From the human T2T-CHM13v2.0 reference genome, Homo sapiens: 64,000 bases of DNA. Shown piece after piece: positions 8,059 through 35,877 of this stretch. Numbering within the stretch: the first letter of the stretch is position 1; each line of letters starts with the position of its first letter. The stretch is taken from assembly GCF_009914755.1 (NCBI RefSeq), contig NC_060942.1, one strand, 5' to 3'. The translations under genes and the position numbers were made by a program. The notes beneath the pieces were generated by a model, which was given only the letters and a program-made list of their open reading frames with translations, made no database searches and had not been told where the DNA came from.

Positions 8059-9088
8059 GGACTTGGCTTTTTGAGGCGGTTCCAAGATGGCCAAATAGGA
8101 ACAGCTCCAGTCTACAGCTCCTAGCATGAGCGACGCAGAAGACAGGTGATTTCTGCATTTCCAACTGAGGTACTAGGTTCATCTCACTGGGGCTTGTCGG
8201 ACAGTGGGTGCAGCCCACCGAGCGTGAGCCAAAGCAGGGTGAGGCGTAGCCTCAGCTGGGAAGCACAAGAGGTCAGGGAATTCCCCTTCCTAGCCAAGCG
8301 AAGCATCTATTCCAGATAGATGGCATCTGGAAAATCAGGTCACTCCCACCCTAATACTGCGCTTTTCCAATGGTCTTAGCAAACGGCACACCAGGAGATT
8401 ATTTCCCATGCCTGGCTCGGAGGGTCCCACACCCACGGAGCCTCGCTCATTGCTAGCACAGCAGTCTCAGATTGAACTGCAAGGTGGCAGCAAGGCTGGC
8501 GGAGGGGCGCCCACCATTGCTGAGCCTTGAGTAGGTAAACAAAGTGGCTGGGAAGCTCGAACTGGGTGGAGCCCACTACAGCTCAAGGATGCCTGCCTGC
8601 CTCTGTACACTCCATCTCTGGGGGCAGGGCATAGCCAAACAAAAGGCAGCAGAAACCTCTGCAGACTTAAATGTCCCTGTCTGACAGCTGTGAAGACAGT
8701 AGTGGTTCTCCCAGCATGGAGATTCAGAGATGAGAATGGACAGACTGCCACCTCAAGTGGGTCCCTGACCCCCGAGTAGCCTAACTGGGAGGCACCCCCC
8801 AGTAGGGGCAGACCAACACCTCACACAGCCGGGTACGGCTCTGAGATGAAGCTTCCAGAGGAATGATCAGGCAGCAACATTTGTTCAGCAATATTCGCTG
8901 TCCCGCAGCCTTCGCTGCTCATACCCAGGCAAACAGGGTCTGGAGTGGACCTCCAGCAAACGTCAACAGACCTGCAGCTGAAGGTCCTGACTGTTAGAAG
9001 GAAAACTAACAAACAGAAAGGATATCCACACCAAAACCCCATCTGTACATCACCATCATCAAAGACCAAGGTAGATAAAACCACAAAG

Positions 9089-10100
9089 ATGGGGAAAAAA
9101 CACAGCAGAAAAGCTGAAAATTCTAAAAATCAGAGCACCTCTCCCTCTCCAAAGGAACACAGCTCCTCACCGGCAACGGAACAAAGCTGGTTGGAGAAAG
9201 GCTTTGACAAGTTGAGAGAAGAAGGCTTCAGACGATCAAACTTCGCCGAGCTAAAGGAGGAAGCTCGAAGCCATCACAAAGAAGCTAAAAACCTTGAAAA
9301 AAGATTAGACGAATGGCTAACTAGATAAGCAGTGTAGAGAAGTCCTTAAATGACCTGATGGAGCTGAAAACCATGGCACGAGAACTACGTGATGAATGCA
9401 CAAGCTTCAGTAGCCGATTCAATCAACTGGAAGAAAGGGTATCAGTGATTGAAGATCAAATGAATGAAATGAAGTGAAAAGAGAAGTTTGGAGAAAAAAG
9501 AGTAGAAAGAAACGAATAAAGCCTTCAAGAAATATGGGACTATGTGAAAAGACCCAATCTACATCTGATTGGTGTATCTGAAAGTGACTGGAAAAATGGA
9601 ATCAAGTTGGAAAACACTCTGCAGGATATTATCCGGGAGAACATCCCCAACCTAGCAAGGCAGGGCAACATTCAAATTCAGGAAATACAGAGAACGCCAC
9701 AAAGATACTCCTCGAGAAGAGCAACTCCAAGATACATAATTGTCAGATTCACCAAAGTTGGAATGAAGGAAAAAATGTTAAGGGCAGCCAGAGAGAAAGG
9801 TCGGGTTACCCTCAAAGGGAAGCCCATCAGACTGACAGTGGATCTCTTGGCAGAAACTCTACAAGCCAGAAGAGAGCGGGGGCCAATATCCGACATTCTT
9901 AAAGAATTTTCAACCCAGAGTTTCATATCCAGCCAAACTAAGCTTCATAAGTGAAGGAGAAATAAAATCCTTTACAGAAAACCAAATGCTGTGAGATTTT
10001 TGTCACCACCAGGCCTGCCCTAAAAGAGCTCCTGAAGGAAGCACTAAACATGGAAAGGAACAACCAATACCAGCCACTGCAAAAACATGCCAAATTGTAA
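9089..10100 (+). pseudogene. L1 ORF1, disrupted
   Basis: MGKKHSRK... start; premature stops (e.g. TAA 9326-9328) and a frameshift near 9905. Confidence 0.93.
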
Positions 10101-10163
10101 AGATCATCAATGCTAGGAAGAAACTGCATCAACTAACGAGCAAAATAACTAGCTAACATCATA

Positions 10164-31714: not shown

Positions 31715-34700
31715 ATGACAGGATCAAATTCACACATAACAATATTAACCTTAAATGTAAATGGGCTAAATGCTCCAATTAAAAGACACAGACTGGCAAA
31801 TTGGATAAAGAGTCAAGACCCATCAGTGTGCTGTATTCAGGAGACCCATCTCACTTGCAGAGACACACATAGGCTCAAAATAAAGGGATGGAGGAAGATC
31901 TAGTAGGCAAATGGAAAACAAAAAAAGGCAGGGTTTGCAATCCCAGTCTCTGATAAAACAGACTTTAAACCAACAAAGATCAAAAGAGACAAAGAAGACC
32001 ATTACATAATGGTAAAGGGATGAATTCAACAGGAAGAGCTAACTATCCTAAATATATATGCACCCAATACAGGCACACCCAGATTTATAAAGCAATTCCT
32101 TAGAGTCCTACAAACAGACTTAGACTCCCACACAATAATAATGGGAGACTTTAGCACTCCACTGTCAACATCAGACAGATCAAAGAGACAGAAAGTTAAC
32201 AAGGATATCCAGGAATTGAACTCAGCTCTGCCCCAAGCAGACCTGATAGACATCTACAGAACTCTCCACTCTAAATCAACAGAATATACATTTTTCTCAG
32301 CACCATATTACACTTATTCCACAATTGACCACATAGTTGGAAGTAAAGCATTCCTCAGCAAATTGAAAAGAAGAGAAATTATAACAAACTGTCTCTCAGA
32401 CCACAGTGCAATCAAACTAGAACTCAGGATTAAGAAACTCACTCAAAACCGCTCAACTACATGGAAACTGAACAACCTGCTCCTGAATGACTACTGGGTA
32501 GATAACGAAATGAAGGCAGAAATAAAGATGTTCTTTGAAACGAATGAGAACAAAGACACAACATACCACAATCTCTGGGACACATTTAAAGCAGTGTGTA
32601 GAGGGAAATTTATAGCACTAAATGCCCATAAGAGAAAACAGGAAAGATCTAAAATTGACACCCTAACATCACAATTCAAAGAACTAGAGAAGCAAGAGCA
32701 AACACATTCAAAAGCTAGCAGAAGGCAAGAAATAACTAAGATCAGAGCAGAACTGAAGGAGATAGAGACAAAATACCCTTCAAACAATAAATGAATCCAG
32801 GAGCTGGTGTTTTGAAAACATCAACAAAACTGATAGACCACTAGCAAGACTAATAAAGAAGAAAAGAGAGAAGAATCAAATAGACACAATAAAAAATGAT
32901 AAAGGGGATATTACCACCGATCCCACAGAAATATAAACTACCATCAGAGAATACTATAAACACCTCTACACAAATAAACTAGAATATCTAGAAGAAATGG
33001 ATAAATTCCTGGACACATACACCCTCCCAAGACTAAACCAGGAAGATGTTGAATCCCTGAATAGACCAATAACAGGCTCTGAAGTTGGGGCAATAATTAA
33101 TAGCCTACCAACTAAAAAAAAGTCCAGAACCAGACAGCTTCACAGCTGAATTCTACCAGAGGTACAAGGAGGAGCTGGTACCATTCCTTCTGAAACTATT
33201 CCAATCAATAGAAGAAGAGGGAATCCTCCCTAACTCATTTTATGAGGCCAGCATCATCCTGATACCAAAGCCTGGCAGAGACACAACAAAAAAAGAATTT
33301 TAGACCAATATCCCTGATGAACATCGATGCAAAAATCCTCAATAAAATACTGGCAAACCAAATCCAGCAGAAGATCAAAAAGCTTATCCACCATGATCAA
33401 CTGGGCTTCATCCCTGGGATGCAAGGCTGGTTCAACATACACAAATCAATAAATGTAATCCAGCATATAAACAGAACCAAAGACAAAAACCACATGATTA
33501 TCTCAGTAGATACAGAAAAGGCCTTTGACAAAATTCAGCAGCCCTTCATGCTAAAAACTCTCAATAAATTAGGTATTGATGGGATGTATCTCAAAATAAT
33601 AAGAGCTATTTATGACAAATCCACAGCCAATAGCATACTGAATGGGCAAAAACTGGAAGCATTCCCTTTGAAAACTGGCACAAGACAGGAATGCCCTCTC
33701 TCACCACTCCTATTCAGCATAGTGTTGGAAGTTCTGGCCAGGGCAATCAGGCAGGAGAAAGAAATAAAGGGCATTCAATTAGGAAAAGAGGAAGTCAAAT
33801 TGTCCCTGTTTGCAGATGACATGATTTGTATATTTAGAAAACCCCATCATCTCAGCCCAAAATCTCCTTAAGCTGATAAGCAACTTCAGCAAAGTCTCAG
33901 GATACAAAATCAATGTACAAAAATCACAAGCATTCTTATACACCAATAACAGACAAACAGAGAGCCAAATCATGAGTGAACTCCCATTCACAATTGCTTC
34001 AAAGAGAATAAAATACCTAGGAATCAAACTTACAAGGGATGTGAAGGACCTCTTCAAGGAGAACTACAAACCACTGCTCAACAAAATAAAAGAGGACACA
34101 AACAAATGGAAGAACATTCCATGCTCATGGATAGGAAGAATCAATATTGTGAAAATGGCCATACTGCCCAAGGTAATTTATAGATTCAATGCCATCCCCA
34201 TCAAGCTACCAATGACTCTCTTCGCAGAATTGGAAAAACCTACTGTAAAGTTCATATGGAACCAAAATGAGCCCGCATTGCCAAATCAATCCTAAGCCAA
34301 AAGAACAAAGCTGGAGGCATCATGCTACCTGACTTCAAACTATACCACAAGGCTACAGTAACCAAAACAGCATGGTATTGGTACCAAAACAGAGATATAG
34401 ACCAATGGAACAGAGCAGAGCTGACAGAAATAATACCACACATCTACACCCATCTGATCTTTGACAAACTTGACAAAAACCAGAAATGGGGAAAGGATTC
34501 CCTATTTAATAAATGGTGCTGGGAGAACTGGCTGGTCATATGTAGAAAGCTGAAACTGGATCCCTTCCTTACACCTTATACCAAAATTAATTCAAGATGG
34601 ATTAAAGACTTAAATGTTAGACCTAAAACCATAAAAACCCTAGAAGAAAACCTAGGCAATACCATTGAGAACATAGGCATGGGCAAGGACTTCATGTCTG

Positions 34701-35525
34701 AAACACCAAAAGCAATGGCAACAAAAGCCAGAATTGACAAATGGGATCTAATTAAACTAAAGAGCTTCTGCACAGCAAAAGAAACTACCATCAGAGTGAA
34801 CAGGCAACCTACAGAATAGGAGAAAATTTTTGCAATCTACTCATCTGACAAAGGGCTAATATCCAGAATCTATAAAGAACTCAAACAAATTTACAAGAAA
34901 AAATACAAACAACCCCATCAAAAAGTGGTGAAGGATATGAACAGACACTTCTCAAAAGAAGACATTTATGCAGACAACAGACACATGAAAAAATGCTCAC
35001 CATCACTGGCCATCAGAGAAATGCAAATCAAAACCACAATGAAATACCATCTCACACTAGTTAGAATGGCGATCATTAAAAAGTCAGGAAACAACAGGTG
35101 CTGGAGAGGATGTGGAGAAATAGGAACATTTTTACACTGTTGGTGGGAGTGTAAACTAGTTCAGCCATCGTGGAAGACAGTGTGGTGATTCCTCAAGGGT
35201 CTAGAACTAGAAATACCATTTGACCCAGCCATCCCATTACTGGGTATATACCCAAAGGATTATAAATCATGCTGCTATAAAGACACATGCACACGTATGT
35301 TTATTGCGGCACTATTCACAATAGCAAAGACTTGGAAGCAACCCAAATGTCCATCAGTGATAGATTGGATTAAGCAAACGTGGCACATCTACACCATGGA
35401 ATACTATGCAGCCATAAAAAAGGATGAGTTCATGTCCTTTGTAGGGACATGGATGAAGGGAAAGCAAACTATCGCAAGGACAAAAAACCAAACACCGCAT
35501 GTTCTCACTCATAGGTGGGAATTGA
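31715..35525 (+). pseudogene. L1 ORF2, disrupted
   Basis: [10 protein letters not shown] start, TAG TAG at 31901-31906, further stops and frameshifts, small deletion near 35459. Confidence 0.95.
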
Positions 35526-35877
35526 ACAATGAGAACACTTGGACACTGGAAGGGGTACATCACACACTGGGGCCTGTGTTGGGGTGAGGGGATGAGGAGG
35601 ATAGCATTAGGAGATATATCTAATGTAAATGACGAGTTAATGGGAGCAGCACACCAACATGGCGCATGTATACATATGTAACAAACTTGCGCATTGTGCA
35701 CATGTACCCTAGAACTTAAAGTATAATAAAAAAAAAGGAAATATGCTGTATTTTATATAGAATCCATATGTTTAAAATGATCCAGGCACAAAGACCCATG
35801 TGAGTAAGTCTCGTGATCCAAAATATTTTTTAAGAGTTTTTTTTCACTCGGTTTTAAAAATTAATTAATTAATTTAC

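What the first reader, a model, noticed from the sequence alone, without database searches (positions are those of the whole stretch)
8073..35736. Two separately inserted L1PA5-like copies share an ORF2 double stop and many private mutations
Seen: copy A (8073-14202) and copy B (29626-35736) have unrelated flanks. Both read aagatcTAGTAGgcaaat (10350-10355; 31901-31906) where the intact L1HS in this window has aagatcTACCAAgc, so three base changes create two tandem stops at ORF2 codons 63-64. They also share mostly non-CpG changes absent from the L1HS: ORF1 aagtttGgag and caggGcaac; ORF2 gcagggTttgc, gaagAccattac, tgggtaGataac, aaaaCtgatag, aacagaGcagag, tacaCccatc, aaaaacCagaaa, gccaGaattgac, ggaacaTtttta, attaagCaaa, cacatCtacacc. 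These span about 9490-13840 in A (at least 4.3 kb). Each copy also has many mutations of its own. Established: L1 needs ORF2p and shows strong cis preference, so independent insertions should not share nonsense lesions. Inference: either an old multi-kb ectopic gene conversion across about 21.5 kb copied an already decayed element, or both descend from an ORF2-dead full-length master mobilised in trans. Some shared missense sites could be ordinary subfamily diagnostics, but the double stop cannot.
Basis: partly seen in the sequence, partly recalled or inferred. Interest (0 to 1): 0.8.

Follow-up and report, generated by a model that had tools for sequence, protein, structure and literature searches.

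The report
Neighbouring old L1 copies share private mutations
Two decayed full-length L1 retrotransposons 21.5 kb apart on human chromosome 18 carry the same double stop codon, found nowhere else in this genome, most likely because one copy overwrote its neighbour by DNA-level gene conversion soon after both had inserted.

Summary
Copies A (8073-14202) and B (29626-35736) both read TAGTAG at ORF2 codons 63-64. In the whole CHM13 genome the 30-mer is exact only in A and B. None of the 69 two-mismatch hits among 4482 hits has TAGTAG, so it is not a subfamily consensus.

A and B are sisters in an ML tree: SH-aLRT 99, shared branch 0.0071, end branches 0.034 and 0.029. Flanks are unrelated, and all indels are private.

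The copying is old, at about 15% of the way along the lineage. I found no tract edges and no dispersed progeny carrying the paired A/B markers.

Best reading (0.55): early interlocus gene conversion between two near-identical neighbouring insertions. Main rival (0.25): one trans-mobilised copy of an ORF2-dead element that landed next to its parent. A productive ORF2-dead master lineage is not supported.

Both mechanisms are known, so interest is modest. Primate orthologues would decide between them.

The parts
8073..14202 (+). Copy A: full-length decayed L1PA element (5'UTR to poly-A)
   Evidence: Aligns to the window's L1HS over its whole length and to B. ORF1 has 3 and ORF2 has 7 in-frame stops, plus private indels.
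29626..35736 (+). Copy B: full-length decayed L1PA element, sister of A
   Evidence: ORF1 has 4 and ORF2 has 7 in-frame stops, plus private indels including a 14-bp deletion.
10350..10355 (+). TAGTAG in A: tandem stops at ORF2 codons 63-64
31901..31906 (+). TAGTAG in B: same tandem stops
8047..8058 (+). 5' target-site duplication of A (AAAAGAAGTTTG). It is followed by 14 extra bases (8059-8072) before the L1 start.
   Evidence: Read directly. The junction word is unique in the genome (1 hit).
14203..14214 (+). 3' target-site duplication of A, directly after the poly-A
29610..29625 (+). A15T run directly before B. Possibly an A-rich target-site duplication, but ambiguous.
   Evidence: The 3' side has only A9 followed by GG (35728-35738). 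No non-A duplication can be read with confidence.
9490..13580 (+). Span of the 15 sites whose state is exclusive to A and B (9490, 9665, 10304, 10352-5, 10694, 10950, 10991, 12717, 12871, 12880, 12905, 12937, 13038, 13186, 13580)
   Evidence: genome-wide pair tests
40295..46345 (-). L1HS copy used as the outgroup; reads TACCAA at the site
   Evidence: ORF1 338 aa and ORF2 1275 aa both open

Best explanation
A and B began as two separate target-primed insertions of the same L1PA sub-lineage, 21.5 kb apart and in the same orientation. While they were still nearly identical, interlocus (non-allelic) gene conversion copied one onto the other. This was either one long event or a short phase of repeated events, i.e. 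concerted evolution.

By then the donor was already a dead resident. It had gathered about 20 neutral substitutions and a clustered three-base change that turned TAC CAA into TAG TAG. After the exchange stopped, each copy decayed alone by about 3%.

Shown: identity by descent, uniqueness in the genome, unrelated flanks, the early date and the neutral look of the shared changes. Inferred: that the copying was DNA-to-DNA, and which copy was the donor (unknown).
For: 1. TAGTAG is only in A and B: 2 exact hits, and none of the 69 two-mismatch hits among 4482 has it.
2. The paired markers 12905C+12937C occur together only in A and B among 18 hits. 10950G+10991G occur together only in B among 10 hits, with A lying outside the mismatch limit.
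3. A and B are sisters in the ML tree: SH-aLRT 99, shared branch 0.0071, end branches 0.034 and 0.029.
4. Flanks share only Alu-type repeats, so this is not a segmental duplication. A has its own 12-nt target-site duplication.
5. Shared changes look neutral. Taken's table, leaving out the sites L043 shares, the TAGTAG sites and the doubtful 11573-11590 columns, 10 are non-synonymous and 4 synonymous. Ts:Tv is 11:9 for shared changes against 81:45 and 62:45 for private ones. That fits a resident dead copy rather than a selected active lineage.
6. Proximity. Under uniform insertion, a retrotransposed daughter lands within 25 kb of a given site with probability of about 1.6e-5. Conversion is favoured between close, highly similar repeats (passage read in PMC6598467, citing Aleshin and Zhi 2010 and Mansai 2011).
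7. The next relative in the tree, L043, is also local: 53 kb beyond B, same strand, SH-aLRT 96. A truncated copy 84 kb before A (L063) is 1 of 6 other copies in the genome with 12905C without 12937C. Site patterns among A, B and L043 conflict with a simple tree: AB 21, all three 10, B+L043 7, A+L043 5.
8. Another neighbouring L1 pair (chr3, 33 kb apart) also shares 9 exclusive sites, above the 99th percentile of 7 over 1711 pairs. Local sharing is therefore not peculiar to this locus.
Against: No conversion tract edge was found. The ratio of A-B divergence to divergence from nine other copies is 0.73-0.84 in all five regions from 8400 to 13500. Differences are as dense beside the exclusive sites as elsewhere: 4.8-5.5% against 4.8-5.2%.

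The empty first 1417 bp and the 1726-bp inner gap lose significance once clustered sites are merged (P 0.07 and 0.29).

Whole-element co-ancestry is what a retrotransposed copy gives for free. Conversion needs a tract of at least 4.1 kb, or several events.

Conversion also needs two full-length insertions of one sub-lineage within 21.5 kb. B's target-site duplication is ambiguous.

The comparison set is small and not exhaustive: 57 copies, of which 29 are the 30 loci kept minus A's own. That call scored only 40 of 13,176 first-look candidates, and B was not among the 40. 'Nearest relative is local' may therefore be a sampling effect. Some B+L043 states are common elsewhere in the genome.
Confidence: 0.55

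Rival explanations
1. One trans-mobilisation event. A resident ORF2-dead element (A, B or a lost third copy) was transcribed, and its RNA was reverse-transcribed by ORF2p from another L1. The full-length daughter happened to land 21.5 kb away.
For: Co-ancestry covers the whole element with one split date and no tract edges. Both copies are full length with a poly-A end, and A has a clean target-site duplication. TAGTAG is the only unambiguous shared disabling lesion, and all indels are private, so the template was otherwise open. Defective L1 RNAs are known to be inserted with help in trans (passages read in PMC5860796; Wei et al. 2001 seen only in its reference list).
Against: Cis preference makes it rare. 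Landing within 25 kb of the parent has a chance of about 1.6e-5 under uniform insertion (inference). No further progeny were found. The 14 extra bases at A's 5' junction are absent from B and from the rest of the genome. This model does not explain why the next relatives found are also local.
Confidence: 0.25
2. A productive non-autonomous lineage: an ORF2-dead full-length master that seeded many copies in trans.
For: A shared nonsense lesion in two copies with different flanks. A chr7 copy, 5'-truncated at A coordinate 12007, shares 12871G+12880A.
Against: No other copy has TAGTAG. The chr7 copy lacks 12905C, 12937C, 13038C and 13186G. The two-site words for 12905C+12937C and 10950G+10991G hit only A/B. 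By my estimate from 3.5% divergence, these words would each catch roughly half to three quarters of members, so more than one or two further long members are unlikely.
Confidence: 0.03
3. Segmental or tandem DNA duplication of a block that contained the L1.
For: Same chromosome, same orientation, 21.5 kb apart.
Against: Homology stops exactly at the L1 ends. The flanks and the 15.4-kb spacer share only Alu-sized repeats with one another and with the L062 flanks.
Confidence: 0.02
4. The shared sites are subfamily consensus states or independent parallel mutations.
For: The shared stops at ORF1 codon 130 and ORF2 codon 1159 sit at recurrent sites: the ORF1 one is a CGA-to-TGA change also seen in other copies, and 13637T, near ORF2 codon 1159, is also seen in other copies.
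Against: TACCAA is the state in nearly all of the 4482 hits. Each single-step variant occurs in well under 1% of them, and the triple only in A and B.
Confidence: 0.01
5. Another local copying route not separable here, for example endonuclease-independent insertion of A's cDNA at a nearby break, or RNA-templated break repair.
For: B has no clear non-A target-site duplication and only a short A9 tail. The stops lie in the endonuclease part of ORF2 (codons 63-64).
Against: B is full length and ends in poly-A. I recall that endonuclease-independent insertions are often truncated and lack these hallmarks; of PMC1920257 I saw only the abstract in search listings. There is no evidence that a downstream start would give active protein.
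Confidence: 0.08

Closest known systems
Non-allelic gene conversion between interspersed repeats (Alu cases; rate rises with proximity and identity)
   Same: Private mutations of one copy appear in a nearby paralogous copy with different flanks. The two are close together and highly similar. See the passage read in PMC6598467.
   Different: Here the unit is a 6.1-kb L1, and the co-ancestry covers at least 4.1 kb without visible edges. The Alu cases are short, and elevated rates were reported within 10 kb rather than 21.5 kb.
Defective L1 RNAs inserted with proteins supplied in trans (SpIREs; trans-complementation assays)
   Same: A retrotransposition-defective L1 template that still gave a genomic copy (PMC5860796, passages read).
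   Different: SpIREs lack spliced-out parts and need ORF1p in trans. Here the defect is a double stop in ORF2, there is no splice, and the two copies are neighbours rather than dispersed.
Concerted evolution of close gene duplicates followed by escape (Teshima and Innan model, as cited in PMC6598467)
   Same: Shared neutral changes build up in both copies for a while, then the copies diverge independently.
   Different: The paralogues arose by two insertions rather than by a duplication, and nothing is under selection.
HAL1-type non-autonomous L1 lineages (recalled, not looked up)
   Same: L1 derivatives without a working ORF2 that rely on other L1s.
   Different: Those are multi-copy dispersed families. 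Here there are only two copies, both local.

Membership tests
Full-length primate L1 (L1PA) insertion | Collinear 5'UTR, ORF1, ORF2, 3'UTR and poly-A | tested here: met
   A and B align to the window's L1HS over its length: 92% in the ORFs and 83% in the 5'UTR. The 5' ends match those of other full-length copies.
Full-length primate L1 (L1PA) insertion | Target-site duplication | tested here: inconclusive
   A: 12-nt AAAAGAAGTTTG on both sides. B: only A-runs, so ambiguous.
   No repeat library is held. In the tree, A/B lie in the clade farthest from L1HS, with end branches of about 0.03. The label is unverified.
Interlocus gene conversion product | Derived states shared by two paralogues and absent from the rest of the family | tested here: met
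Interlocus gene conversion product | Independent origin of the two loci (different flanks, own insertion marks) | tested here: met
   Flanks are unrelated. A's duplication is clear, B's is ambiguous.
Interlocus gene conversion product | A tract with edges, i.e. relatedness that changes along the sequence | tested here: not met
   The divergence ratio is uniform at 0.73-0.84. Gap tests are not significant after merging clusters. Subfamily-level sites are no more discordant in the 5' part: 5 of 44 against 7 of 38, my count.
Interlocus gene conversion product | Pre-conversion state preserved in an outgroup species | not testable with these tools
   Only this one human assembly is searchable.
Trans-mobilised ORF2-dead L1 lineage | Shared inactivating lesion in copies with separate insertion sites | tested here: met
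Trans-mobilised ORF2-dead L1 lineage | Dispersed progeny | tested here: not met
   TAGTAG and the two-site markers occur only in A/B. The chr7 and chr2 copies share only two sites each.
Segmental duplication | Homology running into the flanks | tested here: not met

The most novel reading that the evidence does not exclude
A full-length L1 with a dead ORF2 was copied through RNA by another element's ORF2p and re-inserted only 21.5 kb from its parent, and the next relatives found also lie within 85 kb. That would point to locus-proximal re-insertion of L1 RNA mobilised in trans, a local bias not described for L1.
Probability: 0.12. Interest if true: 0.6.

Novelty: new member of a known kind. 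Interest (0 to 1): 0.3.

Why it matters
If this is conversion, it is a clean, datable example of multi-kilobase homogenisation between two dispersed L1 insertions. Shared private mutations, and even shared nonsense lesions, would then not prove a common RNA source, which matters when source lineages are inferred from L1 trees.

If it is a trans-mobilised copy, it is a natural example of an ORF2-null L1 escaping cis preference.

Either way the locus has no evident effect on a gene. It lies in a gene desert, and both copies carry many further stops and frameshifts.

Tried and rejected
- Subfamily consensus: rejected.
- Segmental duplication: rejected.
- 5' transduction to find a source element: A's junction word is unique in the genome.
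- A dispersed clade for the trio A/B/L043. The combination 10721T+10758T proved to be common in older copies that share nothing else. 9920G (52 hits) and 10383T (46 hits) overlap only on chr18. A gapped two-site word gave one more copy, on chr2, which has none of the other markers and is taken as chance.
- A local B-L043 patch at 9832-9849: apart from 9832T, the B/L043 reading is widespread (1310 hits with up to 2 mismatches). It is A that departs there, so this is not evidence of B-L043 exchange.
- Shared frameshifts: none. The 'shared insertion' at 13353 is an A-run alignment effect.
- A special mutation signature on the shared branch: none. Ts:Tv is similar to that of the private changes.
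- Wei et al. 2001 is not held.
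Full report
**What is there.** The window is CHM13 chr18:70,928,001-70,992,000. Copy A (8073-14202) and copy B (29626-35736) are full-length L1PA elements on the plus strand, with starts 21,553 bp apart. They align to each other as one HSP (8075-14202 against 29630-35736) at 92.5% over 6150 columns, and nothing else aligns in 1 kb of flank. Each aligns to the window's L1HS copy (40295-46345, minus strand) at about 92% in the ORFs and 83% in the 5'UTR.

Both read AAGATCTAGTAGGCAAAT where the L1HS reads AAGATCTACCAAGCCAAT. In the frame of the L1HS ORF2, which is open for 1275 aa, these are codons 63 and 64.

**Is TAGTAG a family state or chance?** Neither. Across the genome the 30-mer around it has 2 exact hits (A and B), no one-mismatch hit and 69 two-mismatch hits, all with exact flanks and hexamers such as TACTAA, TACCAG or TAGCAA. 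There are 4482 hits with up to three mismatches, and the listed three-mismatch ones mostly read TACCAA. Only 29 of the 4411 three-mismatch hits were listed, so a copy with TAGTAG and exactly three flank mismatches could have escaped. Each single step occurs in well under 1% of copies, so the triple in two neighbours is identity by descent.

**Anatomy.** A has a clear 12-nt target-site duplication (AAAAGAAGTTTG, at 8047-8058 and 14203-14214) and 14 extra bases before the L1 start. That junction word occurs once in the genome, so it does not point to a source element.

B is preceded by A15T and ends in A9 followed by GG. An A-rich duplication is possible but cannot be read with confidence.

The flanks and the 15.4-kb spacer share only Alu-sized repeats, so a block duplication is excluded.

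Both copies are heavily decayed:
- A has 3 in-frame stops in ORF1 and 7 in ORF2.
- B has 4 in-frame stops in ORF1 and 7 in ORF2.
- Every indel is private to one copy.

The other two shared stops are ORF1 codon 130 and ORF2 codon 1159. The first is a CGA-to-TGA change also present in other copies, and 13637T, near the second, is also present in other copies. They say nothing about ancestry.

**Relationship.** The comparison copies were 28 three-kb loci (picked because they carry a hexamer variant) and 29 loci of about 5 kb, that is, the 30 loci it kept minus A's own. One search scored only 40 of 13,176 first-look candidates, and B itself was not among the 40. The set is therefore neither random nor exhaustive.

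B is the closest copy to A, but only just: 95.3% over 9900-12400 against 94.4% for the next best.

The ML tree used 27 rows (A, B, L1HS and 24 loci) and 4409 columns. I left out L033, L034, L038, L039 and L054 as rearranged or partial. It gives the usual ladder from old to young, with (A,B) at SH-aLRT 99, a shared branch of 0.0071 and end branches of 0.034 and 0.029.

Fifteen sites between 9490 and 13580 have a state exclusive to A and B. For random pairs in the same sample the median is 0 and the 95th percentile is 3.

Genome-wide two-site words confirm this:
- 12905C+12937C occur together only in A and B among 18 hits.
- 10950G+10991G occur together only in B among 10 hits. A has two private changes inside the word.
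- 12871G+12880A occur in A, B and one 5'-truncated chr7 copy among 89 hits. That chr7 copy lacks the other markers.

**Date and nature of the shared changes.** Against the sample majority there are 20 shared rare changes, 126 A-only and 107 B-only. The split therefore lies about 15% of the way along the lineage, and a recent conversion is excluded.

Taken's table, leaving out the sites L043 shares, the TAGTAG sites and the doubtful 11573-11590 columns, the A/B-only coding changes are 10 non-synonymous and 4 synonymous. That is close to the neutral expectation. Ts:Tv is 11:9 for shared changes against 81:45 and 62:45 for private ones. The common ancestor thus looks like a resident copy that decayed for a while, not a selected active lineage. 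The sample is small and this is an inference.

**Tract edges.** I found none.
- The ratio of A-B divergence to the divergence from nine same-type copies is 0.76, 0.78, 0.84, 0.77 and 0.73 in five regions from 8400 to 13500.
- A-B differences within 25-100 bp of the exclusive sites are as dense as elsewhere: 4.8-5.5% against 4.8-5.2%. The shared sites are therefore as old as the split and were not added by later short conversions.
- No exclusive non-CpG site lies in the first 1417 bp, and there is a 1726-bp inner gap. Once clustered sites are merged, these give P of 0.07 and 0.29.
- Subfamily-level sites are no more discordant in the 5' part: 5 of 44 against 7 of 38, my count.

**Local relatives.** The sister of (A,B) in the tree is L043 (chr18:71,016,766 onward). 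It lies 53 kb beyond B on the plus strand and lacks the 5'UTR (SH-aLRT 96, branch 0.0032).

A 1.9-kb truncated copy 84 kb before A (L063) is 1 of 6 other copies in the genome with 12905C without 12937C.

Site patterns among A, B and L043 conflict and are interleaved: AB 21, all three 10, B+L043 7, A+L043 5.

Tests for a dispersed clade found none:
- The 10721T+10758T copies elsewhere are older elements that share nothing else.
- 9920G and 10383T co-occur only on chr18 and in one chr2 copy that has no other marker.

Caveats: part of the B+L043 sharing reflects states that are common elsewhere, with A departing in a short patch at 9832-9849, and sampling is thin.

**Weighing the mechanisms.** A retrotransposed daughter explains the whole-length co-ancestry and the insertion hallmarks. 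It needs ORF2p in trans, and under uniform insertion it needs a roughly 1.6e-5 chance of landing within 25 kb of its parent. It also leaves the other local relatives unexplained.

Gene conversion explains the proximity and the absence of any dispersed progeny, and it fits the neutral shared changes. It is known to be favoured between close and highly similar repeats (PMC6598467, passage read). It must, however, cover at least 4.1 kb or act repeatedly, and I could not show an edge.

A second neighbouring pair (chr3, 33 kb apart) also shares 9 exclusive sites, above the 99th percentile of 7. This suggests that local sharing among L1 neighbours is not rare. I did not check whether that pair lies in a segmental duplication.

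My confidences are 0.55 for conversion, 0.25 for a single trans-mobilised copy, 0.03 for a productive dead master, and the rest for other local routes.

**Known work.** I read passages of PMC5860796 (defective, spliced L1 RNAs inserted with help in trans) and PMC6598467 (conversion among transposable elements). Of PMC1920257 (endonuclease-independent insertion) I saw only the abstract in search listings. Wei et al. 2001 on cis preference I saw only in a reference list, and the paper is not held. The efficiencies and subfamily ages I have in mind are recalled, not checked. My four literature searches listed no paper on paired L1 copies sharing a nonsense lesion. That is not proof that none exists.

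**Left open.** No other primate genome and no repeat library were available. The label L1PA5, the absolute age and the choice between the two mechanisms therefore rest on inference.

Noticed in passing
window 40295-46345 (minus strand): The L1HS copy has both reading frames open (338 and 1275 aa). The same 13-nt word GGTGCTATTATTA sits at both junctions, which is a target-site duplication.
   Followed up: partly
G000 chr9:81645895 and 81674838; chr3:11861567 and 11894148 (L014, L015); chr16:38966615 and 38969263: Other neighbouring L1 pairs share a rare variant of the same hexamer. The chr3 pair is 8.6% apart and shares 9 exclusive sites. Their flanks were not checked for segmental duplication.
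   Followed up: partly
L062 3767-9421 (chr18:71,016,766 onward, outside the window): An L1 lacking its 5'UTR carries a nested 320-bp L1 3' end at A coordinate 12009. The chr7 relative L061 is 5'-truncated at 12007, almost the same point.
   Followed up: no
window 9832-9849 and 10763-10774: Copy A departs from B and L043 at several close positions and reads like other copies (L040, L035). These are probably short patches of other ancestry in A.
   Followed up: partly
window 8059-8072: Fourteen bases of unknown origin lie between A's target-site duplication and the L1 start. The junction is unique in the genome.
   Followed up: yes
L063 4682-6556 (chr18:70,850,181-70,852,055, outside the window): A 5'-truncated L1 84 kb before A shares 12905C and a few other uncommon states with A/B.
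   Followed up: partly
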